From a virus (taxonomy: Duplodnaviria; Caudoviricetes): DNA of 64,000 bases. Below, piece after piece: positions 1 through 32,377 of the stretch (the stretch's first letter is position 1; each line of letters opens with the position of its first letter). The DNA is taken from the IMG/VR virus record IMGVR_UViG_3300029305_005387; one strand, 5' to 3'. The position numbers were made by a program, and so were the translations under genes. Below the pieces are notes generated by a model. It ran no database searches and was not told the DNA's origin. It saw only the letters and a list, made by a program, of their open reading frames with translations.

Positions 1-25
1 TATAGAAAATAAAATTGTTATATAG

Positions 26-56
26 AACCCAAGGGTGCATCATGCACCCTTGGGTT
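26..56. terminator. Intrinsic terminator hairpin downstream of the DUF2828 gene
   Basis: aacccaagggtgcat-c-atgcacccttgggtt inverted repeat. Confidence 0.7.
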
Positions 57-67
57 GTAAACAGGTA

Positions 68-1696
68 TTACATACCATGAATCAGCCTAAGCTGGTACAA
101 GGCGTTATTGTGGTCAAGAGCGTCAGAAACATGGTTGTATCGAGGATTCAACAGCTGTTCCACTAGGCAATCCCAAGGATCCATCTTGTTACTCATCACC
201 ATCTTTACAAGGTTCAGAGAGAAGCCAGATACTAAGGTAACTCCGAGTTCATTTTCAGTCATCGGAATTGCTCCGCTCCTAGAATTTACATTCCAGAAGA
301 TTACCTTAGGAAGCTTGTATCCGAGATTTGAGTAATGCTGCTTGATATTATCAAACAACGTTGTAGAATCACTACGATGACTGAGTCTCCATCCTTCATC
401 GTCACAAACACATCCATCAAATTCCATATCAGAAATAATGAGGATATTCGCAGGAAGAGATTCTTGCTTCATATGAAATCTTACAGCTGTATCCAAAACC
501 ATATTGAACACTGCTTCAATATTTGTGTTTGCAACTTCATGGAATCTACTCATGTAGTTCATTCTGTCAGCAACTGACTGACTACGAGCATTGTCAAGAT
601 CAATGAATACAGGATGTTCACTAAAGCTTACTAACTTATTATGGAATTCACCACTCAGTTTTTCAGCAAAGTAAAGAGACAGTGCATCTGCTACATCTGC
701 AGCGGACACTTTACTATCCTTTCCAACACCTGTTTCCATAGATCCAGAACCATCTCTAACTACAAGGGTACCACCGGTTCCTGCTGGAATAAGATTAGGT
801 AAACACTTCCACATTGCTTCAAGTGTACTGACGTCCTCTCGGTTATATCCAACTCTTCGGATTTTGGAAACGATCTCATGAGGAAACAGTGTGGCAGCAT
901 TCATCTTCTCTTTTCCAGAGTTGACATCCTCGATGAACTGTGTGTAGCGTTCCTCGTCATGCTTCATGAAAGCATTTCGATAGATCATACCAGCACGTCC
1001 AGGTACGTTAGGATATTTGATTTCACCCCATTGTCCATTAGACATCTTCACCTCTGTGACATCGATGTATCTGCGAAGCTGTGCAACTAGCTTGCGGTAT
1101 GGAGTCTCCAGTAAACCAAGTTTCTTCGCCATCTTACGAGCAGCTGCCTTCTGGTTTTTGTTGCTAAGAGAAGGTAACCACTTAGCCAGAAGAGAAACAC
1201 GATAACCTTTGTGCATATTTGCGAGGTCATCTTTAAACTGATCATTGATGGCTTTGTAAACCTTGTAGCTGAATTCAACTGAAGAATCTGTCAATTTCAT
1301 CAGATCATCCCACCGACCATAGAAAGGAATGAGTTCTTCAATAGTTTCTGTCTCGTTGTTTCTGATTCTAACTCTAACCAGTTTCGAAATCAGCTCAGGG
1401 TAGTACATAGCCATCCATTTAAGAATGACTCTAAACGCACGACGTTCTCCCATTCCTCCGCGGGGATCACGGAGGAAGAAAAGCCATCTCATGGCTAATT
1501 CCGGAGTCTCATCATAAGCAATGGACCACTTCTTGATGATCTCATCATCAGTCATTTTTCTCATCGCAGGAATAGAAAAATTGAGGTCCAGTAAGGACCT
1601 CCCAGTGGTCTTGTAAGCTGCTGCTCCGTTTTCAGTGAAAGCTCTGTTGTTAATGGAATCACTAACGGCTTTCAGGTTGTTTGCAAAGTTTGTCAT
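68..1696 (-). CDS. DUF2828-family protein (TROVE/Ro60-like helical domain + C-terminal vWA domain), 542 aa
   Basis: Motifs FTENGA, RDPRGGMGER, YGRWDDL, LAKWLPS, TLFPHEIV; vWA MIDAS DGSGS; ISDMEFD, IFWNV, VSGFS. Start set at ATG 1696, preceded by AGGAGGT (1704-1710), rather than the ORF-track start at 1855. Confidence 0.85.
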   Translation of the reverse strand: MTNFANNLKAVSDSINNRAFTENGAAAYKTTGRSLLDLNFSIPAMRKMTDDEIIKKWSIAYDETPELAMRWLFFLRDPRGGMGERRAFRVILKWMAMYYPELISKLVRVRIRNNETETIEELIPFYGRWDDLMKLTDSSVEFSYKVYKAINDQFKDDLANMHKGYRVSLLAKWLPSLSNKNQKAAARKMAKKLGLLETPYRKLVAQLRRYIDVTEVKMSNGQWGEIKYPNVPGRAGMIYRNAFMKHDEERYTQFIEDVNSGKEKMNAATLFPHEIVSKIRRVGYNREDVSTLEAMWKCLPNLIPAGTGGTLVVRDGSGSMETGVGKDSKVSAADVADALSLYFAEKLSGEFHNKLVSFSEHPVFIDLDNARSQSVADRMNYMSRFHEVANTNIEAVFNMVLDTAVRFHMKQESLPANILIISDMEFDGCVCDDEGWRLSHRSDSTTLFDNIKQHYSNLGYKLPKVIFWNVNSRSGAIPMTENELGVTLVSGFSLNLVKMVMSNKMDPWDCLVEQLLNPRYNHVSDALDHNNALYQLRLIHGM

Positions 1697-1730
1697 TTGA
1701 CGTACCTCCTTATTGTGTTGAATGTAGTTG

Positions 1731-2275
1731 ATTATTGACCATAAGTCACAATTTTCTTTTTCATATAATTCAAGAATAATGTTTGCTGTACATGACTTGT
1801 TGTCAATAATTGGAGTCATAGGACGCATTTTTTTGTATTCATATAATTTATACATAATGATTTGCTGTACGCGTCCAAAATATGATGATTATGAGGAAGA
1901 ATCATTTTTGTAAAGAAAGTAAACATAGGACTCTTTTAATTTTTGAAATTAATGTAAATTATAATTCTGAGAAGGAATTACATTTTACTCATCTCCCAAA
2001 CTCATATTCGCGGGGTGTCGAATTATGAATCATTATCTCACACACTTTTTATTTTTATATCTTTTACTGTTTTTATTTAGTAATTGATTGCTGTGTGAGT
2101 CCATTATTACTTTCTTTGAATAATTACCATAAATCACATTTTTGGATCTGGCAGATCCTTAATGTTGCCTTTTATGTAATAATTGCTGTGAGTGATTTCT
2201 GTAATTATTTTCATAAGACCCATATTCTTTTTCATATAATATAAGAATTTTAATTGCTGTAAGGGTCTTTAAAAA
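1731..2275 (-). ncRNA. Array of five structured RNA units (stem-N-YACAGCAA-variable hairpin-stem-UAUG)
   Basis: Five copies of TTGCTGT(A/G) on + (1783, 1862, 2088, 2183, 2254), each enclosed by a different but complementary 6-7 bp stem preceded by CATA. Three units have a further 9-11 bp outer stem. Confidence 0.75.
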
Positions 2276-2304
2276 TGATTCTTTGTTTCCTCATATTCAC
2301 ATTA

Positions 2305-2312
2305 ATAATATA
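2305..2312 (-). promoter_or_regulatory. Candidate early promoter (TATATTAT) upstream of the RNA array and DUF2828 gene
   Basis: Same TATATT(A/C)T motif recurs before many non-structural genes; resembles the phiKZ early consensus TATATTAC. Confidence 0.6.
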
Positions 2313-2422
2313 TAATCGAAAAATCATGCTTATACGATTTACATATTTTCTCAGATTAAAATATATAGTTAGGACATGAATATAATTTAATATTCAAGTA
2401 TACGTTGAAAGGAGATTTCATT

Positions 2423-2974
2423 ATGAAAATAGATAATGTTATCAAAAGTTTTTATGAAACTTATAACCGTGAAGCAATGGAATCCATAGATAGAATTTCT
2501 AAGGAAATTGGATTAGTTGAAAACGGTCATAGTATTAATGCGTTTAACATCATTGATGCATTTGATAAAATGGAAAGTTATATGAAAGGGTATGCTAATT
2601 ATAAAATTACCGAAAAGACTAATCCTAATGCATCATCTCAGTCAGATATTAAATCCTTGACTTATAAATTTATTGATAGTAATGTATTCAGTGAATGCAA
2701 GTTAGGATATAATGAGATTCCAGCTTTTATTGAATCATATATTAAGAGAACAGATTCTTTGATTAAAACATTAGATGAGATTAAAGAATCTATGTCTGTT
2801 GCTGATATTGATCAAGAGTCTATCGGTGATGTAAATGATATGGCAGATCATTTTGTTGAAAAATTACAGGAATCATTTAATCCTGTTATGGATAAAATTT
2901 TATGGGCTTCTGGATACAACGCACGTCAACGTTTGAGAAATGAAAAGGTACAACCAAAACCTGTATTCCTGTAA
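2423..2974 (+). CDS. Hypothetical protein
   Basis: ORF with GAAAGGAG RBS before ATG 2423. Confidence 0.7.
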   Translation: MKIDNVIKSFYETYNREAMESIDRISKEIGLVENGHSINAFNIIDAFDKMESYMKGYANYKITEKTNPNASSQSDIKSLTYKFIDSNVFSECKLGYNEIPAFIESYIKRTDSLIKTLDEIKESMSVADIDQESIGDVNDMADHFVEKLQESFNPVMDKILWASGYNARQRLRNEKVQPKPVFL

Positions 2975-2981
2975 TTAAAAA

Positions 2982-3017
2982 ATATAGAATGGGTGGAAAA
3001 TTCCACCCATTCTATAT
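2982..3017. terminator. Bidirectional terminator between convergent genes
   Basis: 17-bp inverted repeat atatagaatgggtggaa/ttccacccattctatat. Confidence 0.75.
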
Positions 3018-3730
3018 CATCCTCTTATTTCTGTATTTTTTACATATCCATACATCAGTCTTTTATATCTTTTTAGATCTTCTAAAGATGGTGTAGTGAG
3101 AGATTTGAATTTTACTTCAGGACTATCTTTGAATGGTTGTAGGTAATATTTATCAGCACCATTAATCATCTCTCTAATTCCTATAAATGATTCATCATCA
3201 TGAAGTTGCTCGACTACAGTAGTTCTGAATTCATAATCGCAATCACTATATTCGCCACCTAACATAATTGCATCAATAGAATCAGTAATATCTGTAATTG
3301 GTACAGCAAATTTACCTACAGTCTGAGGATATTTTCCAATGTTATTTTTTATATCCATAGCCACATAATCTACTAGTCGCTTATCAATTAAATATGATAA
3401 TGGACTTGATAAAATTCCATTTGTATCAAGTTTAATTTTGTAACCAAGACGTTTAATATCTCTGAATATTTCCTCAATATCATACATTAATGGCTCTCCT
3501 CCAGTAAATACAACACCTTCTAATTTATCAGACCTTTTCTTTAGGAAATCCATTAAGTAAGAGATATCGAATTTAGAAAACATACCAGGTTCCATTAAAC
3601 TAGAATTATGACAAAACGGACATCTTAAATTACATCCAGCAGTATAAACTACGCATGCAATATGTCCTGGATAATCCAATAATGTTGTAGGTAAAATATT
3701 TGCTATTTGTAAATCTTTATTGAACAACAT
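3017..3730 (-). CDS. nrdG: Anaerobic ribonucleotide reductase activating protein (radical SAM)
   Basis: LLDYPG, GCNLRCPFCHN (CxxxCxxC), TGGEP, KLDTNG, DYVAMDIK, YEFRTTV; start likely MLFNK at 3730. Confidence 0.85.
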   Translation of the reverse strand: MLFNKDLQIANILPTTLLDYPGHIACVVYTAGCNLRCPFCHNSSLMEPGMFSKFDISYLMDFLKKRSDKLEGVVFTGGEPLMYDIEEIFRDIKRLGYKIKLDTNGILSSPLSYLIDKRLVDYVAMDIKNNIGKYPQTVGKFAVPITDITDSIDAIMLGGEYSDCDYEFRTTVVEQLHDDESFIGIREMINGADKYYLQPFKDSPEVKFKSLTTPSLEDLKRYKRLMYGYVKNTEIRG

Positions 3731-3802
3731 AACACTTTTCCTTTCTTTTAAAATTATCAAACTGCTCATTAATTATATTTAGTATGAATTGGAGGTTTAA
3801 AT

Positions 3803-5469: not shown

Positions 5470-6606
5470 TTACGTATCGATTGTATCACGATCTACCACG
5501 AATTCTCTAATTAAGCTACGTCTTGCAAGAACGTCTGCAGGATTACCTCCACGTAGCATTTGGAAAATCTTCATGTCATTTTCAATATCACCTAAATTTA
5601 CACGTACTAAACTTCTGGTATTTGGATCCATAATAGTAGTACGAATATCAGCTTCATCATTTTCTCCAAGACCTTTAAAACGATGAAGAACGTTAGGTTG
5701 ATATTTCTTTAACATTTTTAATGTTCCAAGTACTGATAATTTATTTTCCATACCAGTCTTATTATTTCTCAGAATAAGATAACCATTTTCACCTGGCATC
5801 CATTCCGTAAGAATTTGAATTAATTCCTTAGATCTCTTGATGAAATCTACTGAAATTTCAAATACTTGTAATTTTGCATTGATTGAGCCTTTGATGAGTT
5901 TAGTGTTATCATCATAATAGAGTTCAGGGAATTCAATTCCAATTCGATCCATTAAATGTTGAATGTTAATAGATTTAATCTGTGATTCAATATCTTTATG
6001 GAATTCAAATTTCATCAATGCACATTCTTCCAGAATAATTTCAAGAAGTCTATCATTTGTCTTATAATGCTCTACAAGTAATCGGATATCATCAACATAG
6101 TTAGTTGTCTGACCTAAGAATTCTGTCAACTGACTCTTAGAAAGATATTCAATTGAATTTTCATCTTCAGTCATTTGATATCCTAACTTGTAGTCCTTAA
6201 GAGCTGCTTGGACATATCTCTCGATATATTCCTTTTTATTAATTACGAAAGGATCTTTTTTATCATCTACTCTGTAAAGAGGAGGTTCTGCTATAAACAG
6301 TCTTCCATCTTTGATAATATCTGGATAGAGTTTAAAGAAGAAAGCTAATAATAAGCTTCTAATAAAGTATCCGTCTACGTCAGCATCAGATGCAATAATA
6401 ATTTTGTCGTAATTCAATTTTGACATATCAAATTTTACACCTGCGTTACATCCCATGACAGTGATTAGATCTGTAAATTCCTTATTACCCTTCGGACCTA
6501 CAATCTGATCTAAAGTCATCTTGAAAACATTCGCACTGACGCCACGGATTGCAAAGAGTGCTTGAAATCTTGGATCTCTAGCCTGTTTTAGCGAACCCTT
6601 GGCGGA
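5470..6606 (-). CDS. gyrB: DNA gyrase B / type IIA topoisomerase subunit B, exon 2 (TOPRIM domain)
   Basis: Begins SAKGS, completing EGDSA; ASDADVDG, PPLY, RFKGLGE motifs. Confidence 0.9.
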   Translation of the reverse strand, partial: SAKGSLKQARDPRFQALFAIRGVSANVFKMTLDQIVGPKGNKEFTDLITVMGCNAGVKFDMSKLNYDKIIIASDADVDGYFIRSLLLAFFFKLYPDIIKDGRLFIAEPPLYRVDDKKDPFVINKKEYIERYVQAALKDYKLGYQMTEDENSIEYLSKSQLTEFLGQTTNYVDDIRLLVEHYKTNDRLLEIILEECALMKFEFHKDIESQIKSINIQHLMDRIGIEFPELYYDDNTKLIKGSINAKLQVFEISVDFIKRSKELIQILTEWMPGENGYLILRNNKTGMENKLSVLGTLKMLKKYQPNVLHRFKGLGENDEADIRTTIMDPNTRSLVRVNLGDIENDMKIFQMLRGGNPADVLARRSLIREFVVDRDTIDT

Positions 6607-7999
6607 CATTTATCTTCATACTGTATCGCAACTACAGTACCGAGCTTTTAACTCTGCTACTACTCTCGTAGTACGACATCTGTATCTCAACAGATGAAGT
6701 GACATAAATGTCAGATGAGACTATATCTTTTATACTAACCACTTCGCGTTACCTCAGTCCCTTGCAGGATTTAAACTGACCTCCATTAGCTTGAGGGCTA
6801 CTCTACTCACTTCTTCATATTAATATTTCTATTAATACTATGCTTTCGATAGTCGTTGAACTTTATTCATATCATATCACTTTTGTACATTTTCTACCTT
6901 TTAATATTGAAACAAGATAAGATCTAGATGTCTTATTATAAATTGAGAATATCTCATCAATACTTTTTCCTGATTTATACATTTCCCTCATTGTATTGAT
7001 ATCACTTACTCTATATTTTGAATCAGGTCGTATATTACCCGTATAATCATTAAAATTATATTGTGAAGTGATATCAATCCATGATCGTTGATGTGTTCTA
7101 AAATTATAAAGTTGATTTCTGAAATTTTTGTATACTCTTTTATCTTCAGGAAATATATTATAGTATGCAGCAATATCTTTAACACATATATCTTCTTCCA
7201 TCATTCTACATACATGATGAACAATTTCACTTGTCCATTCAAATGTTCTCTGATATAATCCTTCCTCAGCTGCATATCTACTATTGAGAAATGGTGTTGT
7301 TAATTGAAGATTATTTATATTATTATTCCATTTAACATTATCTTCATGATGAATTACATAACCTTTTGGAATTTTACCTTTCCAAGCTTTATATGTCAAT
7401 CTATGAATTGCCATATGCGTTAAATGTGAATATGGAAATGATATTCTATGATATCCATCATCATCTATTTCTTGTTTCAAAATTTTATTAGTAAATGTTG
7501 AAAATACTATTCCATTTTCTGAAATAAAATATCCATCCACTACTCCAGGAATCGATCTGAATTTTACATTATTACTTTCAATTTCATTTTCAGATATTTT
7601 TATATAAGACATAAATTCAAATCTATTTTCTGTTCCGTAAAATGTAATATTAACTAAATTAATTATATAAAATATTTTATCTTTATAAATAAATTTAGCA
7701 TTAATATATGGAATAATATCTTTGATTTCATCGTTTTCTATAATATAAATATTATACATTTTATCAATTCGAAAATTTGTATAATGTGGGATTTCTATCA
7801 AACTTTTGATATCCATAATTTATCACCACCTTTTTCAAATTGATATGATATGAATTTTAGCTGCGGATTTTCTCTACCTAACACCTTTTTACTATACCTT
7901 TGGAATTACCCATTGCCCCATAGTATATCACTATCTATGGTTAGTAGTGTTAGTCTAACAAGATGTTCCCGACAGTTCAATTAGTTACGAGACCACTCG
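6607..7999 (-). mobile_element. Group I intron (1393 nt) in gyrB
   Basis: Exon 1 ends GAGAU pairing with GUCUC (U.G at splice site). P AACUGUCGGGAA (~7966-7977), Q AAUCCGCAGC (~7860-7869), R GUUCAACGACUA (~6850-6861), S AAGAUAUAGUC (~6719-6729). Terminal G at 6607. Splicing restores EGD|SA in frame. Confidence 0.92.
6872..7816 (-). CDS. Intron-encoded HNH homing endonuclease
   Basis: DGYHRI...IHRLTYKAW...VIHHEDNVKWNNNINNLQ...N (HNH_3 type), lying between intron Q and R elements. Confidence 0.88.
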   Translation of the reverse strand: MDIKSLIEIPHYTNFRIDKMYNIYIIENDEIKDIIPYINAKFIYKDKIFYIINLVNITFYGTENRFEFMSYIKISENEIESNNVKFRSIPGVVDGYFISENGIVFSTFTNKILKQEIDDDGYHRISFPYSHLTHMAIHRLTYKAWKGKIPKGYVIHHEDNVKWNNNINNLQLTTPFLNSRYAAEEGLYQRTFEWTSEIVHHVCRMMEEDICVKDIAAYYNIFPEDKRVYKNFRNQLYNFRTHQRSWIDITSQYNFNDYTGNIRPDSKYRVSDINTMREMYKSGKSIDEIFSIYNKTSRSYLVSILKGRKCTKVI

Positions 8000-9334
8000 A
8001 TCTCCTTCGATGATGAATAGCTCTTTGTACTCTTTTCCTTTATTCGTACAAGGATCAAAATTCTTCATCTTATAAGATGACCAGTTTGTCAATGTATTTT
8101 TTACGACAGCAGAACGTACTTTATCCCCTTCACGTCTAGCTCTTGCATTCATCTTGACAATTGTAGTCAACTCTTTAAGTTGAGCTTGATTTTTTCCTGT
8201 GAAATATGTTCCAAGTGCATCTGATAATAGACTCACAATGATTCGTTTAATATCTTCAGATACAACTTTATGTTTAGTCTGCCCAGTATATAGTCTCTCG
8301 AAGTTTGTTCTAAGAGCTACACTGATAGATAGACCTGTACGTACATCATCCCACTTAATATCAAGCTTATCTTTTTCTTTTTCTCCTAAAGAATTCTTTG
8401 TAGCAGTCTGTAAGAATCTACAAATCGCTTCCATAGCTCCTTCTAAATGATGACCATTATCAACAGTATTATTTGAGTTACTGAAACTATCAATGTATGG
8501 ATTCAATGAAGAAGTAAACACAAACGCAACATCCATAGACAAGAAACGCTTAACATTTTCACCATCAAGTTCTTCAATAACATCATCAGCATCAATAGTC
8601 AAACAATACTTCTGACTGATCATTTTATCTTTTTCATTACGATCAAGAATGTCTTCAAATGGAGCAATCTTGTATTTTTCTCTTGTAACATTTCCCTTTG
8701 CATCGTAATAAACAGAATCCATCTTAATTTTCTTTTTATTAAGATATTGAAGATTCAATAAATTATGTCTTACATCTTTCCATATAATCTTGGTATTTTT
8801 ACCCATTACCTTGGAAGGTTTGTACATGATGGACATACCATGTTTATCTGGAACACATGGAGATTCATACTCATTAATCTTTACACCTTCTTCAAAGACT
8901 AATGTTTTCTGTTTATTTTCAGTACCACCACGATATGACGTAATTTCAACGTGTTCAGCAAGACCACAGATTGCCAAAGTGCCAGTACCATTTTGACCCA
9001 ATGTTTCTGCTTTAAGAGAAGCTTTATTACTAGTATTTATATTCGATCCCATGTTCAAACTAGTATAAATATCTTCTAATAGGTGAGTAGGAATACCTCT
9101 ACCGTTATCTTCGATCGTAATAAAACCAGTTCTTTCATCAAACTCAACATGAATTGTATTACCAGGAGAACGTGGAGTTCTACATTCATCCAATGCATTA
9201 TAGAGAATTTCATCTACTACTGATTTTGCACCAGCTTCATTAGAATATGAAATATATTGACGATGTCTTACTCTAATTTTTTGAATATCACTTTTCAAGT
9301 GATCAAACACGTCGTCTACATATTTAGCCGCCAT
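8000..9334 (-). CDS. gyrB: DNA gyrase B / type IIA topoisomerase subunit B, exon 1 (GHKL ATPase + transducer)
   Basis: EILYNALDE, EDNGRGIP, GQNGTG, GQTK, ELFIIEGD. Start ATG 9334 after GAGGTG. Spliced product about 823 aa. Confidence 0.9.
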
Positions 9335-9499
9335 AATATCCACCTCTGTTTCTATAAATTTTCATATTTTAAATGCTCCTTTCCATGAGTAGCTACTCAT
9401 TACTTTGATACAACTTCAGAATATATCATTTCTAAATTCGTTATATTATAGATAGATGCGTAAATAAGAATTTAAAAAGATTAATGAAAATGTTATAAA

Positions 9500-15281: not shown

Positions 15282-18200
15282 TTATGGTCTAGCCATTGCT
15301 GTTATTGATCGTGCACTTGAATAAGAACTTGATCCTTTGTTAAATGTTTTTGATTTAGATTTACCTAGTGCATTAATTGAATCACGTAAACCCTGATCAA
15401 CAAATTCTTTTTCATTCAAGCTTGATAATAATGTAGTGGAAGATCCTGTATTTGTACTGATCTTTACTAATTCAGAAACTACCTGTTTCATCAATCCAAT
15501 CACTCCACTTAAGTCAGTTCCTGGAATAATATCATGCTGATAAGAATTATCACTCGTTACAGGAGCACTAGCTTTAATGATAGGAGGATTACTTTGATTC
15601 AATGTATGAGTTACTGAATAATTATCAGAAGGAGTAACTTTAGGAATAGATTTTCTCTGTGTAGTTGCATAATTATTCATTGTACCAATACTACTATCTG
15701 TAGGTCCACCGATACCATCTTCAATATTACCAGGATCAGCTTGCACCTCTAAAGTCTTTCCGCTAGGATCTTTCAATACTTGAGCATTTTGTGATTCAAA
15801 ATCATAATTTTCATCTTCAATTGAACCACCAGTACCATATTTACCTTTAAGCTGATTATACAAAGATCTAGCAGTAGATTGTCTGGAAGAAGAGTCTCCG
15901 GAATATCCTTCAAAATACTTACAGAACAATCTTGCAGCTTCTTCAGGACTAGAAGCATTTTCAATCTTGGATCTTACACCAGAATAGCTTCCTTTCAATT
16001 CAGTATCAAGGAATGCTAACTGAGTTGCAGAATCACCCCAATCAAGATTATTAGATCTTGCAAAATCAAGTAATGCTTTACCTCTAGGACCTGTCCATTG
16101 AGCATAACCAATACCAGGATAATAGTGTCCATCAGATGCTTTATATGCAGCTCTATTAATAGATAGACCTTGGCTTGCATACTGATTAAATAGTGCTTGT
16201 GTATAATTATCCATCGCAGATCTATCATTCAGTACTTTATCATATCCTAGTAAAGTTTTGAAGGAATTAGAATAATCCCATTCAACTCGTTTGGATCTAT
16301 TACCAGATTCCTTCGTCCAGCAACCAAGAACACCAGCAATAGCATGATCACTATATCCAAGTCCTTTGAAATATTTCCAAAGTTCTTCTGCTCCTTCACC
16401 AACTGATGATATACTAGAGAGACTCGTTTGAAGATTACTAAAATCAACTGCTCTAATGTAAACAGTTACTTCACTCATCTTACGTTTCTTTCTAGCTACA
16501 CAACCACCGTTGCTTTGAGAGCCAGCGTCAGAAGCTGAAGTATTACCTTCAATTGTCTGAATGTATCCATTACCCAATACTTCTTCCACAATACCAGTAT
16601 GAGACATACTAGATGTAGATTTAGTCCAGATAATAATATCACCTGGTTTAGGATTAGATGTATGAACCTTATCAGACTGATTAGATTTATACCAGTTCAT
16701 CAATTGTGAACAAGATGCAGTTTTGTGAGGTAAAGTTAATCCTGCATTATTGAAACACCATTGTACAAATGCCATACACCAAGGATACGAATCACCACTA
16801 ACTTCTTTACCATAATACCATGTATTATATTTTACTTTATTGCTTCCAGGAGGATTTTCAGTTGTACCAATTTCAGCCGCACACATTGCAAGGAAGTCAG
16901 CTGCAGAACCAACGCCACCACTGTAAGCTCCAGAAGAACCACTAATAGAACTACTTGAACTAGAGGAATTATTACTGAATAGACCGCCAGTTATTAAGTT
17001 CAAGAATCCAGTACCAACTTCCTGAATCTTATCAATTAACTGATTGAAAATACCATCAGATGTTCCACCTGTACCAATTCTGCTATCATTATCAATCTCT
17101 TGATATCCACCATGAATTGGATTAATTGCAGACTTTCTACCAAGTTTAGCATCATTTTCAATCTGATAATGTAAGTGAGCTCCTGTTGACCAACCAGTTG
17201 AACCCATTCGACCAATCTTAGTACCAACCTCAACTCTTGCTCCAGGTTTAATGGAACTAGGAATAGATCCAGCGGCTAGATGCATGTTCTTAACTCGTTT
17301 GCCGTTATCAGTATCGATCCATACTTCATTACCACCTGATTTATTTCCACTATAAGACCATTTACCATTTGCGTCTTTATGAGCAGTATCATTATCTGCG
17401 ACAGTTCTTTCAACTTTAGAAATAGTACCACTGAAACGTGATTCTACATCAGCAGTTTTAGAACCATCCCTAGGTATTAAATCAACACCATAATGGTATC
17501 CTTCATAAGGATGACGTCTCTTACCAAATCCACTGCTTACAGAATAAGATTTGTTTAAAGGATTACCTCCTTCAATACTACCACCTATTCCAGCATAAGC
17601 AGGTTGCATAGAAGATCTGAAAGGAACAGCTCCGCCTATTCTAGGTCCACCTACTCCTTCACTATCGCCTCCGGAACCACCTAACCAATCCCAGAACTTC
17701 TCTAAACCACCGCTGAATTTTTCCTTGACAGAATCAATCGCATCTTCAATCCAATTTCCAATTGAACTAACGATTGCAACAGCAGAATTGAAAAGTTTAG
17801 AAATAGTAAATGAAACTTTCCATATAGCAGATAATGGGTCTCCATCTTCCAAAGTTAATTCTTTACTCCAAACCGCATTTACATCTCCATCTTTAGCTGA
17901 ATCTGCTAAATCAGAAAGAGCTGTATCAAGAGTACTCTTATTTGAACTAACCTTAGTTGAGATTCCTTCAAATCCTTCTTTGATTTTATTACCAATTACA
18001 TGTATTCCAGCTCTTGGATAGTTGATAAGTTTTGCAACTCCAAACATAGCTTTCATGATACCGCCAAGAGGATTTTCTGAATTATCTTCGTATTCTAAAG
18101 ATTTAATTCCTTCAAAATCACCAGCCTTAGCGTATTCTTCAATTGAATCCACATTTGTATCTAAAGTAGATTTAGCTTCACCAATTGTATCAAGCATTGC

Positions 18201-21200
18201 AGTGAATTTCTCTTTAACTTTAGCACCTACCCAATGTAATCCAGCACTTGGTACGTTCAAATATTTATCAACTGTAAAGATAGCTTTAGTGAAACCACCT
18301 ACTGGGTTTTCAGGATCATCTTCAAAATCTAAACCTAATAAACCTGTTACATCACCATCTTTTACGAACTGTGAGATACTTTCATGGTTCTGTGTCAACG
18401 CTCCAAAACTATTGGAAACCTTTTCTTTTACAGCATTAAACTTAGAACTTACGCTATTACCTACCCAGTGAAGACCTGTTGGTACATAGTGTAAAAATTT
18501 ATCCACATTAAAAATTCCCTGTGTAAAACCACCTACTGGGTTTTCAGGGTCCATTTCCATTGTGGCTGCTCCTAAAGCTGTAAAATCTCCAGTTTTGGAA
18601 ATTGCATTCAGAGTATCATGATTTGTTCCTAAAGTAGTAAAACTATTGGAAACCTTTTCTTTTACAGCATTAAACTTATCGGCGATTTTATGTCCTACCC
18701 AAGATAAACCTGCAGGAACAAATGAAACAAATCTAACACCGTTAAAGATTGATCTTGTTAATTTACCAACTGGATTCTCATCATTATCAACGAATTCAGC
18801 TGTTTTCAATCCTTCTAAATCACCAGCACTAATGTACTGAGTTAAGTTTCCAACACTTGTCGATAGTTGATTAAAATCATTCTTAACGACGGATACTATT
18901 TTAGAAATCTTATCCCCAATAATACCACCAACTCGTTTAACCAAAGCTGTTGGAATGATGCTTAGACGAGAAGCGATTTTTGTAACTTTCATAAAATCGC
19001 CGACTGGATTATCTGGATCTTCATCCTCAACCTTAAACAGATCTGAGAAGTTTGAAGACTTATCTGTCAAGAGTTTATTTGCATATTCTCTTTCAGCAGA
19101 AATAGTACTTCCAAAATCTTTAACCTTTTTAACTACTCCAGTTACTTTATCAGCGATTCCATGACCAGCTGCAGATATTAATGTAGGTACTGTAATAAAT
19201 GTTTTTCCTGCATTATAAACTGCACTGCCAAAACCACTTATAGGACTATCAGTATCAACTTCAGAACTTTTACTAGAAAGAAGACCTTTTATATCACCTT
19301 TCTTAACATAACTGAATAGTGTTGCTGCTGAAGATTTAAAATCACTAAAACCTTTTTTAGCTTTATCACCAATATTTTCAGTAAATTCCTTAATAGAATC
19401 TCCAGCATTGGATAAAGCAGCTCCAGTTCTTTCAATCAGATTACCTTTAGTTTCTTTAACTACATAATTTCCTTCAGCATCGACTTTAGCAACACCATTT
19501 TCATCGGTTTCATAAACATCTCCACCAGTAAAGAAACGTCCAACACTATTAGCCCATTTACCAATTTTAGCACCGAATTTTTCATCTTTATAAAGTTCAT
19601 TACCTTCGGCATCAACAGCTCTAATGGCTTTACCTTCAGCGTCTCGAACAACAACACCCTCTTCATTTTTGACGTATTGTTTTTCTCCGCCTATAACAGC
19701 ACCTTTCAGACCTCCATCTATTATACCACCAGCATCATCAAAGACAAAGTTTCCTTCTTCATCTTTTTTCATACCGCCTCTTAGAACTTTATCAACCCAA
19801 CTTCCATTGTTTACAAGATCATTGAAAGTTGAACTATTAAGATCTGTACCATATTGAGCATTATATTTATCTTTCTGAGCAGTCATTTCACCTTGCTTCT
19901 CAGCAAGTGTAGCTGCTCCTTCTTCACCAGCAATCAACTTATATAAGAATTCAGCAATGTATTGTTGTAATGTTTTACCAGTCAATCCTAAAATAATAAG
20001 TTGATCAATGATATCAAGAGCACTTACGATAAAACCTACAGCAGGAGTCCATTCAAGAGCTTCAAATACACCTTTTTGAACTGCAGCTATAGCTTTCATA
20101 GTAGCATCTGCTTCTCCAGGAGCGACATTGAACAAATGTTCTACTGAACATAGACCAGAAGCAATACCAGATATAGCACCTATTGCAATTGGAACTCCGA
20201 CTCCTAAAGCAGAAATAGCCTGTTTAGCTGTTCCAGCTCCTAATTTTGCAGTAAGTTTAGCAGTAATCTTCTCAGCAATAGTAGATGTAACTTTACCAGT
20301 AGTTTTTCTGCAAATATCATCGAAGAAAGAAGTAATTTTTCCTCCAAAAGATTTTAACGCATTTACTGCTTTAAATTTAGTAGCAAGGAAATTAAAGAAT
20401 TTCTTCAGAATTTCAATAATATTATCAACAAGACCTACACCTTTATCTATTACTGACTTCTTACCTTTAATTGCAGATACTCCCTGATTCACAATTAGAC
20501 CTGCAGTTGTACCAGCAGTAACATAATCACCAAGTCTTTCAGAATTTTCTTCACTTAATCCAAGTTGGTCGCCTACATAACTAGCAGCTTCTCCAGCAAT
20601 AGTAGAAACTCCTGTCATTACACCAACACGTTTAGCATTAAGAACAACTTCATCTAGAGCTCCTTTACCAGTTTGACTTCTAGCCTCAGCTGCATCAGCA
20701 TCTGCGTCTTGTGCTCTCTGATAATAATCACCAGATTGGTCAGCTAACTGATCTCTTTGTTGACGTAATGTAGCTGCTCCATCAACATCTCCATCCATTT
20801 CAGCAATTCTTGCTCTACGAGTAAGATCAGAAGCTTCCGCATATGCATCATCAGCCATATTCATATAGTTTACAGAATCTCTTGTATACTTATATGCCTG
20901 ATAAGCAGGTTTCGTGATGGACTGTTTCAAAGGAGTGTAAAGTAAGTAATCATTCTTCGCTTCTGTTGCTCCTTGATGAATAACTTGTTCACCACTAGCA
21001 TCGGTATCATTATGATATACATTAGTAAATGGATTGAATAAATCAGTTTTATCATTTACTTCAGCATCAAATGTATTCAGGACTGTATTCACACCAGAGG
21101 TTACTGGATCATCAGATTTATCAGATCCCCAGAACTCTTCCCAAGAATCTCTCAGCTGATCAGCTATATTGTCCATATTACCAAAAGCACCTAATATAGT

Positions 21201-24200
21201 ATGAATAGCTGTTAAAATACCGCCCCATTTAATGAGATTATTCAGTATACCATTATCGCCACCAAGAATTTCAGTAATCTTTTCAAAGAAACTAGATTTC
21301 TCCTCTTTCTCCTCAGAAACTATTTCTTCTTGACTTTGTAGCAATTCACGTGACTTTGCTGCTAATACAGATTTATTACTGTCATCCTTAGCTGCTTCTG
21401 CAATAATCTGATTCACAAGTCTCTGATCTGTAGTTGTTATATGTCCTTCAGAAGCAAGTGTTGCAGCCATTCCTAATGTAGAATTAGCAAATCCTTCATC
21501 TTCTTCATGACGAGCACTTTGTGCTACTGTATCCTTTAAATCATCAGAAGGAGCTGCTTCAGCAGATGTTCTAAAATCATCTCCCTTAAACATATCAGCG
21601 ATTCCATGAAGTTCTGGATTAACCTGTCCTATGGTGGAATTATTTTCAGAAGACTCAGATTCTGCAGTTTTCTTAATCGAACCAGGTAGCCAAGACTTAA
21701 TTGTATTGATGATCTCATCAATTCTGGTGTGAAGACCCTCATCATGTGTATATATTGAACCCTTTTCAGATCCTAGCTCAGCAAGTGTTGTTACTCCTTC
21801 TCGGATTTCAGAAGTATCTTGTGCTGTTTGTACAGCAGCTTCATTTGCTGCTACTTCTTCAGGTGTGAGGACTCTCTCATGTGTATATTCTTTTACTTTG
21901 GCAGCCCATCTGGAACGACGTTCGTTTTCAGCTGCTTTATAGGTCTTATAGTCAGCATACTTATCATCTTTTGCTCTTTCATCTTTAATAGATGCAGCTC
22001 TATCTTTTCTACGAGATCTAATAAAAGATTTAGTAGAAACTGTCTTTTCTTCACCAGTCTCTTCATCAACATATGTATGCTTATTTTTACCTGCAATAGA
22101 ATTTGCAATACTACTTAAACCAGCTCCAATTACACCAGTACCAGCAGAACTTGCTCCTCGTGTTGCTCCACCAATCATAGCTATAGGAGCTTTGGCGACA
22201 TTAAGAAGTCCTTTTAATGGAGATAACATCATGTTTCCAATAAACTTAAAAACTTTACCAAAGTGAGATTCAGCAGAATTTGCAATTCTATCTTTAATAG
22301 CAACTCCAATATCGGATAATGGTCCAAGAATATTTTTCTTTAAATTATCTCCGATATGTTGGGCAGTTTTACCAATCTGGAATTTAATAGGATCAACGAT
22401 TCCATCAGTTAAGCGAGTTAAAAGACCTTTGGCTCTTCCTTTTTCATCTCTACCTATAAACAGATCTTTTATCTTGCTACCAATATCCATTCCTGATAAT
22501 GCATTACCAGCGACGGCACCCATTATTAGACCAATTGGCCCTCCTAATATACCAGCACCAGCAAATGCACCTACAGATGCAGATATTAATTTCTTACGTT
22601 TATTAACAATGGAATTATCTTCATCCTTATCTCCATAATCAAAATATCCTGCTACTTCTTTAAACCATCCAGCAGCTTTATCTTTGGTACCTGCAAACAT
22701 GTCTTTGACATAATCTTTTACAAATCCAAAATAACCGCCTTTTTCATTTTCAGCCACATCTACTCTATTACCATCTTCATCAGTATAACTGTAAGCATGA
22801 CCGAAAATTTTATGTTTCAAATAACCAGTAACATTTCCAAATTGATCATTTATTCGAGCTGCTCCAGCTTTAACCTGTTCGCCTGTTACCTCTGTAACAT
22901 CTCTCATGATTAAACTAAAAGCTTCTCGTACTTGTTCAGGAGATCCAGAGAATAAAGCCCTTCTTAAATTTCCTCCTCTTTCTTTACCCCATCTTACAAA
23001 ACGTTGTCCCTTAGACAACTCTTCAGTTGTTCCATCTTCAAGTTCTTGATTTTGTAACAGATTAGGTTCATCAAATGTATTTTCACCAGAAAGAGTAGAA
23101 ACTGTATTTTGTGATTGACCTGTAGCAATATCATTAGTTGCTTTAGGTCTATAATCAACTGGTGGAGATAAATATTCATTACCTCTTTCCGGATAAGGAT
23201 CAGTTTGAATATTTGAACTTCCTACTTGGAAAACATTAATACCTCTATTCAAAACTCTAAATATTTCATATAAAGCTTTATTTGAATAAAAAGTACCAGT
23301 ATGTATATTTCCAGTTGATTTAATTTCACTCTCCGCATTGCTTTGAATTCTACCATGTGATCTAAGAATATTTTGTACTTCTTTATCAGCATTAGATTTC
23401 ACATCAGAAAGATCCATGTTATAAGCATTTGCAGTGCTCAGATAAGAAGACATTTTACGATTACGATTTACATTTATCATTGCAATCTGATTAGAGATAT
23501 CAGTACTAATATTTGTATCCAAGTGTTTGGAAATGTTAGAACCCATTTGATCAACTCTGGCTCTTTCATTATCGCTCATCGTCAGATTGTTATTTTTATA
23601 TAAATCTTCAATATACTGAGTAAATTTTGAAGGATCCATTGTAAATCCTTCAATTTGCCTTCTAGCTTCTCCTCCTGCAGTTTTATTACCAAGATCAGTA
23701 ACCATAAAGTCATAGATCATCGATCCGAAACTATCATATCCAAATGATTCTCTAACTTGTCTACTTGCACTACCAAGAGAACCACTTGCAGTAGAAGCAT
23801 CTAAATAATCTTTTTTAATAGTAGCTTTAGTTGAAAACTTTCTTCCCTGATAATCATATACTACATCTTCTCCACTAATAGCGTTAAGAATCTTTCTAAG
23901 ATAACCAGGTATTGCATTCGTTATAGATTCATGAGCAATAGAATCAAATGGAACTGCTTTTAATTCTAATGAAGATCTAGTGTTACTAATATCCTGACGT
24001 CTAGAATCAATGCCGAATAAACGAGAAAGTTTTCCACTTTCACTCCAACTATTATTTTCTCCTAACCTAATCAAAGAATTCAAAACAGTGTCACTAATAG
24101 CACTGTCAAGAGCTTCCATATTTTTACGAAGATTAGGAGCTTTTGCATCTAAAATACTTGACAATATACCACTTGTCAATGCCTCTGGAGTTGCCATCTG

Positions 24201-32277: not shown

Positions 32278-32377
32278 AATGAAACCTCCTTTGACAATTT
32301 TTGTAATACTTTAGACGTTGGTCAAGTCAGTCAACGCTGTTATAACTATTTTAATAGAAATGGAGTTGAGAAAATAT

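What the first reader, a model, noticed from the sequence alone, without database searches (positions are those of the whole stretch)
1731..2312. Array of five covarying structured RNAs in front of a TROVE/Ro60-like vWA (DUF2828) gene: candidate RNA-array RNP system
Seen directly, in minus-strand sense and transcription order: A (2269-2212) aagaccc-u-UACAGCAAU...gggucuu-AUG; B (2198-2128) aaaucac-u-CACAGCAAU...gugauuu-AUG; C (2102-1924) ggacuc-a-CACAGCAAU...(~150 nt)...gagucc-UAUG; D (1876-1817) ggacgc-g-UACAGCAAA...gcgucc-UAUG; E (1798-1740) aagucau-g-UACAGCAAA...gugacuu-AUG. The closing stem differs in every unit yet always pairs, while YACAGCAA and the 3' UAUG are invariant, the pattern expected of selection on an RNA fold. 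Units B, C and E have an extra 9-11 bp outer stem (2119-2127/2201-2209, 1912-1922/2107-2117, 1731-1739/1802-1810). The inner region is a variable hairpin; A, D and E share the loop AUUAUAUGA. A candidate early promoter (2305-2312) precedes the array, and the gene's RBS follows it with no terminator. Established: Ro60 (TROVE + vWA) binds the stem of Y RNAs. Inference: the protein binds these units as Y-RNA-like scaffolds whose variable loops act as decoys, guides or adaptors. Alternatives are a type III TA-like RNA antitoxin array or a multi-site autoregulatory leader. I do not recognise this motif from any described family.
Basis: partly seen in the sequence, partly recalled or inferred. Interest (0 to 1): 0.92.

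Follow-up and report, generated by a model that had tools for sequence, protein, structure and literature searches.

The report
Phage Ro60-like protein's partner RNA array
A large gut phage encodes five small structured RNAs that share one "handle" (a short clamp helix plus the letters ACAGCAA) just ahead of a gene for a protein predicted to fold like the RNA-binding ring Ro60. The same RNA-protein pairing recurs in very different phages, so they probably form a Y-RNA-like particle for which I found no published description.

Summary
Five minus-strand units (2269-1740) each have a 6-7 bp closing stem, 1-2 nt, invariant ACAGCAA, a variable insert and a 3' (U)AUG. Units B, C and E carry perfect 9, 11 and 9 bp outer stems.

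- **Protein:** the gene downstream (1696-68, DUF2828+DUF7788) is predicted to fold like full-length Ro60. All ten best structural matches are Ro60/TROVE (Z 12-16).
- **Recurrence:** the same handle lies on the gene's strand beside homologues in metagenomic phages and in Felix O1-type, Listeria, Enterococcus, Staphylococcus, Campylobacter and mycobacterial phages. In the jumbo phage Munch the units sit 180 kb from the gene, next to tRNA genes.
- **Structure:** all 7 stem pairs covary. About 80 model hits, several of them repeats, all lie on the gene's strand.
- **Reverse test:** 13 of 34 stem-closed handles found by pattern have the gene nearby, against 2 of 81 without a stem.
- **Modularity:** in relatives the variable part is often a tRNA-like body, as in bacterial YrlA.

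Best reading (0.72): these are Y-RNA-like partner RNAs of a Ro60-like protein. Binding and expression are not shown.

The handle scores below threshold against Dictyostelium Class I RNAs (RF01414), and only against that family. There is no Rfam family at threshold, and I found no paper describing it.

This scan has already reported the same system on other DNA (over 150 notes, at least 113 genomes).

The parts
2292..2316 (-). Conserved AT-rich element (ATTATATATTATTAATGTGAATA...) 23-47 nt before unit A. Candidate promoter of the array-plus-gene transcript.
   Evidence: blastn finds the same element at the same relative place in the syntenic relatives L033 and L034. It does not reach the sigma-70 consensus. 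The octamer alone is not enriched in the window. Promoter function is inferred.
2212..2269 (-). Unit A. Clamp stem 2269-2263/2221-2215, ACAGCAA 2260-2254, hairpin with loop AUUAUAUGA, 3' AUG 2214-2212.
   Evidence: R1 scores 59.8 bits. RF01414 scores 24 bits, with an exact CCUUACAGCAA.
2119..2209 (-). Unit B. Outer 9-bp stem 2209-2201/2127-2119, clamp stem 2198-2192/2137-2131, ACAGCAA 2189-2183, GC hairpin 2158-2144.
   Evidence: z -3.6. R1 scores 42 bits.
1912..2117 (-). Unit C. Outer 11-bp stem 2117-2107/1922-1912, clamp stem 2102-2097/1933-1928, ACAGCAA 2094-2088, and a multi-hairpin insert of about 150 nt.
   Evidence: z -5.0. R1 finds only the 5' part (17.9 bits) because of the long insert. 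L033 has similar long-insert units.
1817..1876 (-). Unit D. Clamp stem 1876-1870/1827-1821, ACAGCAA 1868-1862, hairpin with loop AUUAUAUGA, 3' UAUG.
   Evidence: z -3.8. R1 scores 57.2 bits.
1731..1810 (-). Unit E. Outer 9-bp stem 1810-1802/1739-1731, clamp stem 1798-1792/1749-1743, ACAGCAA 1789-1783, hairpin with loop AUUAUAUGA.
   Evidence: R1 scores 50.1 bits. The outer stem keeps pairing through double changes in the last units of L019 and L034 (read by eye).
1705..1711 (-). Ribosome-binding site AAGGAGG of the Ro60-like gene.
   Evidence: It lies 8 nt before the ATG at 1696.
68..1696 (-). Gene for the Ro60-like protein (542 aa). N-terminal helical DUF2828 part and C-terminal vWA (DUF7788) with the MIDAS motif DGSGS.
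   Evidence: The longer in-frame ORF that reaches 1855 runs through units D and E. Homologues start at the 1696 Met, so the extension is not supported.
26..56 (-). Perfect 15-bp hairpin directly after the stop codon. Candidate terminator of the operon.
   Evidence: Read. The scan did not call it because no T run follows. Function is inferred.

Best explanation
The five units are small structured RNAs of a widespread family. They are probably the RNA partners of the Ro60-like protein encoded just downstream, and together they would form a phage Y-RNA-like ribonucleoprotein.

Proposed working, step by step:
1. One transcript starts near 2316-2292 and runs through units A-E into the gene (inferred).
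2. Each unit folds so that its two ends form a 6-7 bp clamp helix, with ACAGCAA left single-stranded beside the 5' strand. In B, C and E an outer helix extends the clamp across an internal loop that holds the 3' AUG. The fold is shown by covariation. Processing into separate RNAs is inferred.
3. The ring-shaped protein docks on this handle. This is by analogy with Ro60, which reads conserved bases on the 5' strand of the Y RNA stem (inferred).
4. The variable insert of each RNA is displayed as an effector module. Here that is three hairpins with the loop AUUAUAUGA, one GC hairpin and one 150-nt multi-hairpin domain. In other phages it is a whole, permuted or anticodon-replaced tRNA-like body.
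5. The particle would then tether or decoy host or phage factors that act on RNA, in RNA surveillance or repair or in counter-defence.

The only functional datum for this protein type comes from a preprint on phage Bas63. It reports that gp130, a protein structurally similar to Ro60 and encoded directly upstream of tRNA genes, counters the Ppl defence.
For: **Protein**
- Foldseek E is 1e-10 to 5e-5 against 13 Ro60/TROVE chains aligned over the whole length.
- VIA-align gives Z 12.1-16.2 over residues 14-524. The vWA-only rows reach at most 10.4.
- The MIDAS residues D315, S317 and S319 are invariant in 26 homologues.

**RNA fold**
- On 16 units from 10 phages, 98% of cells pair and 7 of 7 pairs show double changes. 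Slid controls pair at 27-47%.
- A second alignment of 20 units of this clade behaves alike.

**Association**
- Model R1 gives 40, 20 and 20 hits at E<=1 in three overlapping searches of 197, 83 and 83 kb. All are on the gene's strand, and none lies elsewhere in the 64-kb window.
- Units flank the gene in the syntenic relatives L019, L033 and L034. They also flank it in Felixounavirus tootiki, Listeria List-36, Enterococcus iF6, Staphylococcus SEP9, Campylobacter F341 and Mycobacterium phage Lolly9.
- Reverse test: of 115 IMG/VR stretches holding the pattern, 34 are closed by a 7-bp stem. Of these, 13 carry a DUF2828-like ORF, always on the same strand. Only 2 of the 81 stretches without a stem do. 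Fisher P is 1.3e-6.

**Action in trans**
- In phage Munch the gene lies at 110 kb and the units at 289-298 kb, abutting tRNA genes.

**Modularity like YrlA**
- Units in relatives hold permuted tRNA-like bodies that score 29-40 bits against RF02553.
- In some, the handle is circularly permuted into the anticodon position of a tRNA-like body.

**Selection**
- In related strains only 1 of 22 SNPs falls in the 22% of positions that make up the handles (P 0.03).

**Published precedent**
- Canonical Ro60 with Y RNAs in bacteria and phages: PMC4201824 and PMC12135203.
- Bas63 gp130: 10.1101/2024.10.10.617714.
Against: - No experiment shows that this protein binds these RNAs, or that the units are made as discrete RNAs.
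- At sequence level the protein is not TROVE. Pfam TROVE gives no hit even at E<=10, and PDB sequence searches find nothing significant.
- The handle lacks the Ro60-binding motifs GNCGAAN0-1G and GGUCCGA.
- None of the window's five units has a tRNA-like module.
- One natural variant, at 1795, breaks a clamp pair of unit E without compensation.
- I found no convincing unit within 3 kb of the gene in Vibrio phage K571 or in the giant-virus-bin group L009-L017.
- 21 of 34 stem-closed handles had no gene in the stretch fetched.
- The covariation sets were chosen, or aligned by a model, for having a stem, so the percentage paired is partly built in.
Confidence: 0.72

Rival explanations
1. The array is a cis-acting leader of the mRNA. 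The units are sites where the protein, or another factor, binds its own transcript to control translation, stability or processing. They are not free small RNAs.
For: In the window and its close relatives the array sits between a conserved upstream element and the ribosome-binding site, with no terminator. The outer stem of unit E ends 20 nt before the Shine-Dalgarno sequence.
Against: In other phages the units lie downstream of the gene (Lolly9, SEP9, tootiki). They also lie inside tRNA operons, or 180 kb from the gene (Munch). Many units carry whole tRNA-like bodies, which a leader would not need. The two roles are not exclusive.
Confidence: 0.1
2. The units belong to phage tRNA operons. They would be processing punctuation, tRNA-derived decoys or small mobile inserts. 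They lie near the DUF2828 gene only because that gene also tends to sit beside tRNA genes, and the protein does not bind them.
For: In relatives the units are interleaved with, or abut, tRNA genes. Several units are tRNA chimeras.
Against: The window, L019, L033, L034, Lolly9 and SEP9 keep the units directly beside the gene, with no adjacent tRNA gene. In the reverse test the gene is strongly enriched next to stem-closed handles and is always on the same strand. I did not survey phages that have tRNA arrays but lack the gene.
Confidence: 0.08
3. The array is a type III toxin-antitoxin-like RNA antitoxin array, or the AUGs after the units start small peptides.
For: The units are repeated ahead of a protein gene. 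An AUG follows each unit, and short ORFs of 7-36 codons can be read.
Against: There are no tandem direct repeats, and the units differ in length from 55 to 206 nt. The protein is Ro60-like, not a ToxN-type endoribonuclease, and PADLOC gives no hit. No ribosome-binding site precedes the AUGs. The AUG is replaced by G in other clades.
Confidence: 0.02

Closest known systems
Ro60 (Rsr, TROVE+vWA) with Y RNAs: bacterial Yrn1 and YrlA/YrlB (Chen et al. 2014, PMC4201824; Rfam RF02553) and Thermus phage phiLo Ro60 with Yrl1/Yrl2 (PMC12135203; PDB 9KOP, 9L5Y)
   Same: The protein has the ring-plus-vWA fold. The RNAs are encoded beside the gene on the same strand, and their 5' and 3' ends pair into a stem with a conserved motif on the 5' strand. 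A variable module, which in relatives is a permuted tRNA-like domain, makes up the rest. There are several different RNAs per protein.
   Different: The protein falls in DUF2828/DUF7788, not Pfam TROVE. The conserved RNA motif is single-stranded ACAGCAA next to a 6-7 bp clamp, not GNCGAAN0-1G or GGUCCGA in a bulged helix. The window's units score nothing against RF02553. Here there are five RNAs in tandem, none of them tRNA-like.
Class I RNAs of dictyostelid social amoebae (Rfam RF01414; Kjellin et al. 2021, PMC7919456)
   Same: They are about 60 nt long. [quoted passage not shown] Unit A has that motif exactly, and all units share ACAGCAA. The conserved termini are similar (AAG...CUGU against AAG...CUUG). 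The rest of the RNA is variable and there are many copies per genome. RF01414's best hits in whole phage genomes are exactly these units.
   Different: Scores are 13-27 bits against a gathering score of 41.5. The hosts are eukaryotes and the genes have a DUSE promoter. The known direct binder is the RRM protein Rnp1A. The paper reports that the class is absent outside Dictyostelia. I could not test whether dictyostelids encode a DUF2828 protein.
Bas63 (Felixounavirus) gp130, a Ro60-like protein reported to counter the Ppl defence (PhageMaP preprint 10.1101/2024.10.10.617714)
   Same: It is a phage protein with Ro60-like structure sitting directly upstream of a tRNA array. The preprint's authors guessed that some of those tRNA genes are Y RNAs. 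The Felixounavirus tootiki has this layout, and its array holds four ACAGCAA units.
   Different: No RNA partner was identified or tested there. I did not confirm with a tool that gp130 is orthologous to the window's protein. The window's phage is a phiKZ-like jumbo phage with no tRNA gene in these 64 kb.

Membership tests
Ro60/TROVE proteins | Fold: a ring of helical repeats followed by a vWA domain | tested here: met
   The AlphaFold model has pLDDT 80. Its top 13 Foldseek matches and top 10 VIA-align matches are all Ro60/TROVE, over residues 14-524, with Z 12.1-16.2 and 393-422 residues aligned at rmsd 5.0-6.4 A.
Ro60/TROVE proteins | MIDAS motif (DxSxS) in the vWA domain | tested here: met
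   D315, S317 and S319 (DGSGS) are invariant in 26 homologues.
Ro60/TROVE proteins | Sequence membership in Pfam TROVE (PF05731) | tested here: not met
   Pfam lists only DUF7788, DUF2828 and weak VWA_2 and SNaCT11, even at E<=10. A profile search of PDB touches a TROVE chain only at the MIDAS motif, with E 0.55.
Y RNAs of the YrlA type (RF02553) | Covariance-model match at or above the gathering score (69 bits) | tested here: not met
   There is no hit in the window at the gathering score, and none at E<=10 in 1600-2500. Units in relatives that hold tRNA-like bodies reach 28-40 bits.
Y RNAs of the YrlA type (RF02553) | GNCGAAN0-1G motif near the 5' end (PMC4201824) | tested here: not met
   By eye, the conserved 5' motif of all five units is ACAGCAA. 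No unit has GNCGAA beside its 5' stem.
Y RNAs of the YrlA type (RF02553) | 5' and 3' ends paired into a stem, encoded near the Ro60-type gene on the same strand | tested here: met
Y RNAs of the YrlA type (RF02553) | Bound by the Ro60-type protein | not testable with these tools
   This needs EMSA or pull-down. The complex predictor takes no RNA.
Dictyostelium Class I RNAs (RF01414) | Covariance-model match at or above the gathering score (41.5 bits) | tested here: not met
   Unit A scores 24 bits and unit B 18.3 bits. The best score anywhere is 26.7 bits, in phage tootiki.
Dictyostelium Class I RNAs (RF01414) | Terminal 6-bp stem with the 11-nt motif next to its 5' strand, total length about 60 nt | tested here: met
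   Unit A has CCUUACAGCAA exactly. All five units share ACAGCAA 1-2 nt after the stem. A, D and E are 55-56 nt long and B is 68 nt. The family's features are taken from PMC7919456.
Dictyostelium Class I RNAs (RF01414) | DUSE promoter element about 60 nt upstream, in a dictyostelid genome | tested here: not met
   The window is a phage: it has a phage DNA polymerase, phiKZ-type RNA polymerase beta and virion proteins. The units are tandem, 10-50 nt apart.
Type III toxin-antitoxin RNA arrays (ToxI type) | Tandem near-identical short repeats next to a ToxN-type endoribonuclease | tested here: not met
   Tandem Repeats Finder finds nothing in 1600-2500. The protein is DUF2828/vWA and has no PADLOC hit.

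The most novel reading that the evidence does not exclude
The ACAGCAA handle would be the same recognition module as in the Class I RNAs of dictyostelid amoebae. On this reading Class I RNAs, thought unique to Dictyostelia and of unknown mechanism, are Y-like RNAs whose handle is read by a Ro60-like DUF2828 protein. The RNA-protein pair would be shared, or exchanged, between viruses and amoebae.

Two leads bear on this:
- One of the four proteins pulled down with Class I RNA DdR-21 is the uncharacterised DDB_G0281243 (preprint 10.1101/2020.04.05.026054). I could not determine its family.
- Handle units also occur in a contig binned as a giant virus (L046).
Probability: 0.18. Interest if true: 0.95.

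Novelty: new variant of a known kind. Interest (0 to 1): 0.8.

Why it matters
**A second Ro60-like protein line.** Ro60 with its Y RNAs is a conserved RNA-surveillance particle and a major human autoantigen. Its bacterial and phage versions are known only for TROVE-annotated proteins with GNCGAA-type Y RNAs. Here a second protein family with the Ro60 fold turns up, present in 710 of 50,697 cultured-phage records and in thousands of metagenomic clusters. It comes with its own RNA family that has no Rfam entry.

**A testable partner.** This gives a concrete binding partner for a widespread phage protein of unknown function. A relative of that protein is reported to defeat a bacterial defence.

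**Unannotated RNAs in known phages.** It would also account for unannotated gaps, and some odd tRNA-like sequences, in the tRNA regions of well-studied phages of the Felix O1, P100/A511 and SEP9 types.

**A lead on Class I RNAs.** It offers a direct experimental route into the unexplained Class I RNAs of Dictyostelium.

Tried and rejected
- **Rfam at gathering scores.** Nothing was found in the whole window.
- **Sequence searches of the PDB.** Neither the protein nor a profile gave a significant hit. Only the fold comparison showed the Ro60 likeness.
- **Whole-genome search.** No genome is held for this window, so I could not look for further units, tRNA genes or RtcB elsewhere in the phage.
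- **Expression.**
  - One metatranscriptome run holds a single 184-nt contig over 1896-2073, inside unit C, and nothing else.
  - That library may also contain DNA, so I draw no conclusion from it.
- **Dictyostelium protein side.**
  - Avesson et al. 2011 is not held.
  - DDB_G0281243 appears in only one held paper, with no description.
  - The proteome files in the supplements of PMC7919456 are cut, and they hold neither that gene nor DUF2828 motifs.
  - Protein searches list only the 120 best hits, all viral or metagenomic.
  - The question therefore stays open.
- **Literature.** Searches for DUF2828, ACAGCAA and Ro60 with phage found no description of this RNA family.
- **Sigma-70 promoter scan.** It found fewer sites than in shuffled sequence. 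The phage has its own RNA polymerase, so the scan says little.
- **Model R1.** It missed the Campylobacter units, whose stems differ in sequence, and the long-insert unit C, so its counts are lower bounds.
- **Giant-virus-bin contigs L009-L016.** They are not held as whole records and could not be searched.
Full report
**1. What is in the sequence**

I read the minus strand of 1-3000. Each unit has these parts:
- a 5' strand of 6-7 nt;
- 1-2 free nucleotides;
- the heptamer ACAGCAA;
- a variable insert;
- the complement of the 5' strand;
- then (U)AUG.

Units B, C and E are wrapped in a second, outer helix of 9, 11 and 9 perfect pairs. The AUG therefore sits in an internal loop between the two helices. 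Units A, D and E carry a hairpin whose loop contains AUUAUAUGA. B has a GC-rich hairpin, and C has an insert of about 150 nt that folds into several hairpins.

ACAGCAA occurs 12 times on the two strands of the window, and five of these lie within 530 nt of one strand. The Poisson P is about 2e-10. Energy folding recovers every clamp and outer helix, with z from -1.7 to -5.0. Tandem Repeats Finder sees no direct repeat. What repeats is therefore an architecture, not a sequence.

**2. The transcription unit**

The array lies in a 730-nt divergent intergenic region. On one side is a plus-strand gene (2423-2974, no family found). On the other is the minus-strand gene 1696-68.

- A 17-bp bidirectional terminator at 2981-3018 closes the upstream minus-strand gene, so the array needs its own promoter.
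It is conserved at the same place in the syntenic relatives L033 and L034 and is the best promoter candidate.
- The octamer alone is not enriched in the window.
- The sigma-70 scan is uninformative, because the phage encodes a phiKZ-type RNA polymerase.
- No terminator separates unit E from the AAGGAGG site at 1711-1705.
- A perfect 15-bp hairpin (56-26) follows the stop codon.

The long ORF that some gene callers extend to 1825 or 1855 runs through units D and E. Homologues begin at the Met of 1696, so the extension is not supported.

**3. The protein**

- Pfam gives DUF2828 plus DUF7788, a vWA domain.
- PHROGs gives phrog_850, annotated 'RNA-binding protein', at E 6e-121.
- Sequence searches of the PDB find nothing significant, and Pfam TROVE does not hit even at E<=10.
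- An AlphaFold model built on 26 homologues has pLDDT 80 and pTM 0.71.
- Its 13 best Foldseek matches are all Ro60/TROVE proteins, aligned over the whole chain.
- VIA-align gives Z 16.2 for 9KOP (Thermus phage phiLo Ro60 per PMC12135203), 14.6 for its 9L5Y dimer and 12.1-13.6 for Xenopus, human and Deinococcus Ro60. Each alignment covers about 400 residues. Rows that match only the vWA domain stop at 10.4.
- The MIDAS residues are invariant.

The protein is therefore a structural relative of Ro60 that sequence libraries file separately.

**4. The same RNA handle travels with this protein**

*Forward test.*
- A pattern script found the same unit type on the gene's strand beside homologues in eight IMG/VR contigs. 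It also found it in the closest relative with DNA, L019, and in a common gut phage, L020-23.
- Among cultured phages it found the units in Felixounavirus tootiki, Listeria phage List-36 and Mycobacterium phage Lolly9. The script also found two units in Campylobacter F341. The covariance model R1 then found units in Staphylococcus SEP9 and Enterococcus iF6.
- The syntenic relatives L033 and L034 keep the same divergent neighbour genes as the window. They carry at least 5 and 4 units ahead of the gene.
- On a 16-unit alignment, 98% of cells pair and all 7 pairs show double changes. Slid controls pair at 27-47%.
- I built model R1 from that alignment.
- R1 gave 40, 20 and 20 hits at E<=1 in three partly overlapping searches. 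Every hit was on the gene's strand, and none lay elsewhere in the window.

*Reverse test.*
- I scanned IMG/VR for AAGACNCNNACAGCAAT and got 115 stretches.
- Thirty-four were closed by a 7-bp stem. Thirteen of these held a DUF2828-like ORF, always on the same strand, and 10 of the 13 units lay within about 1 kb of the ORF.
- Only 2 of the 81 stretches without a stem held such an ORF. Fisher P is 1.3e-6.

*Action in trans.* In the 350-kb phage Munch the gene lies at 110 kb. The units lie at 289-298 kb, butted against tRNA-Ser, tRNA-Pro and tRNA-Leu genes. They must therefore act in trans, and tRNA processing could cut them out.

**5. The handle is a portable module**

- In relatives the variable part is often tRNA-like. 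Some units hold a T arm, then a hairpin, then a D arm, which is the permuted order of bacterial YrlA. These score 28-40 bits against RF02553, whose threshold is 69.
- Others enclose a whole tRNA-like body (L001 4556-4664, L006 680-776).
- In L020, L001 and L003 the handle is circularly permuted. The order is 3' strand, a loop of 3-4 nt, 5' strand, N, ACAGCAA, and it stands where the anticodon loop of a tRNA-shaped RNA would be.
- This modular design is the one described for Y RNAs: a protein-binding stem plus an effector module (PMC4201824).
- That paper also notes that Ro60 mainly reads the 5' strand of the stem. This handle keeps its invariant letters beside the 5' strand.
- The window's own units have no tRNA-like part. 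Their clade has its own features instead: the 3' AUG, the outer helices, and a recurrent loop motif AUAUGAA. The outer helices keep pairing through double changes between the window's unit E and the last units of L019 and L034.

**6. Population data**

Contigs of related strains from animal gut and faeces metagenomes carry 22 SNPs across the array. Only one of them falls in the 22% of positions that form the handles (P 0.03). It breaks a pair of unit E without compensation. This is weak support for constraint on the handles.

**7. Most likely mechanism and its rivals**

*Best reading (0.72).* The units are Y-RNA-like partners of the Ro60-like protein. The handle is the docking site and the inserts are displayed modules.
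- Shown: the fold of the handle, the predicted Ro60-like fold of the protein, and the conserved same-strand linkage in both directions of testing.
- Inferred: binding, processing into free RNAs, and function.

The function is probably RNA surveillance or repair, or counter-defence.
- RtcB-type ligase genes lie near the gene in List-36 and Munch.
- A preprint reports that the Ro60-like gp130 of the Felix O1-type phage Bas63 counters the Ppl defence. Its authors guessed that neighbouring 'tRNA genes' might be Y RNAs.

*Rivals.*
- A cis leader (0.10). It fits the window, but not the downstream or distant units of other phages.
- Elements of tRNA operons unrelated to the protein (0.08). It fits the interleaving with tRNAs, but not the loci that keep units beside the gene with no adjacent tRNA gene. 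It also does not explain the reverse test.
- A type III TA array or small peptides (0.02). These fail on repeat structure, protein family and conservation.

**8. Comparison with what is known**

The closest system by function is Ro60 with Y RNAs. The protein passes the fold and MIDAS tests and fails Pfam TROVE membership. The RNAs pass the architecture test and fail the YrlA model and its motif.

The closest described RNA by sequence is unexpected. In an E-value scan of all 4227 Rfam families over 1600-2500, the top hits to units A and B are the Class I RNAs of Dictyostelium (24 and 18 bits). Unit A contains their 11-nt motif CCUUACAGCAA exactly.

I also searched RF01414 over whole phage records. 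Its best hits are precisely the units next to the gene:
- tootiki: E 3e-4, 26.7 bits;
- List-36: E 0.004.

Kjellin et al. describe the following for Class I RNAs:
- a length of about 60 nt;
- a covarying 6-bp terminal stem;
- the motif next to the 5' strand;
- termini AAG and CUGU;
- a variable remainder.

The phage units read AAG-AC..., then ACAGCAA, then ...GUCUU-G. All scores stay below the gathering score of 41.5, and the paper reports the class as absent outside Dictyostelia. So this is a resemblance, not membership.

I could not test whether dictyostelids encode a DUF2828 protein. One of the four proteins pulled down with a Class I RNA is the uncharacterised DDB_G0281243, which I name as a lead.

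**9. Novelty and earlier work**

I found no Rfam family at threshold and no paper that describes this RNA family.

This scan has reported the same system before on other DNA: over 150 notes in at least 113 genomes. Several of them also name the Class I resemblance. I reached my reading, before looking at those notes, and they agree with it. A later check recorded on one note put its bold reading at 6 in 100, which made me keep my own bold reading low.

New here, as far as those notes show, are:
- the clade-specific outer-helix and AUG architecture of this jumbo-phage group;
- the conserved upstream element;
- the reverse association test;
- the DDB_G0281243 lead.

**10. Verdict**

- Observation: confirmed.
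- Interpretation: supported, with binding and expression unproven.
- Class: a new variant of the Ro60/Y-RNA kind.
- Interest: 0.8.

Noticed in passing
window 5470-9343 (-): A type II topoisomerase (GyrB-like) gene is in two pieces. The ATPase part is at 7985-9343 and the Toprim/C-terminal part at 5470-6609. A free-standing HNH/NUMOD4 homing-endonuclease ORF (6872-7816) lies between them.
   Followed up: no
window 3017-3769 (-): A radical SAM protein scores as QueE-like in PHROGs (5e-18). It also scores as prokaryotic viperin (pVip) in PADLOC (3e-9). It lies one gene from the array, behind a 17-bp bidirectional terminator at 2981-3018.
   Followed up: no
window 15282-24947 (-) and 32318-40837 (+): There are two giant ORFs. 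The 3221-aa one carries peptidase and lysozyme-like domains near its C-terminus. The 2839-aa one has no PHROG family. With the phiKZ-type RNA polymerase beta gene at 49841-52654, they mark the window as a jumbo phage with its own transcription machinery.
   Followed up: partly
window 2368-2393: A second conserved intergenic element (ATATTAAATTATATTCATGT...) is shared with L033 and L034 next to the divergent plus-strand gene 2423-2974. It may be that gene's promoter.
   Followed up: no
window 2236-2243, 1842-1850, 1763-1771; L034 1660-1804: The hairpin loops of units A, D and E, and of two L034 units, share (U)AUAUGAA. This may be a clade-specific effector motif. Read on the opposite strand it gives TATAAT.
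   Followed up: no
L046 120-717 (-), contig GVMAG-M-3300017963-53: A contig binned as a giant virus carries three 56-nt handle units (AAAGACAC-UA-ACAGCAAUU...GUGUCUU-G). Each is followed by a pair of tRNA genes, in a repeated cassette. No DUF2828-like ORF lies in the 11 kb fetched. The binning was not checked.
   Followed up: partly
L020 2240-2830; L001 2584-2703; L003 4475-4594: tRNA-shaped sequences of 120-130 nt score as tRNA in Rfam but are not called by ARAGORN. In them the anticodon loop is replaced by a circularly permuted ACAGCAA handle.
   Followed up: partly
L004 6179-6275: A skipping-rope RNA (RF02924, 62 bits) lies in the same phage tRNA array as the handle units.
   Followed up: no
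L025 6852-8063; L028 1434-2642: RtcB-type or other RNA ligase genes lie within 3 kb of the Ro60-like gene in Listeria phage List-36 and Salmonella phage Munch. This echoes the bacterial rsr-yrlBA-rtcBA operon.
   Followed up: no
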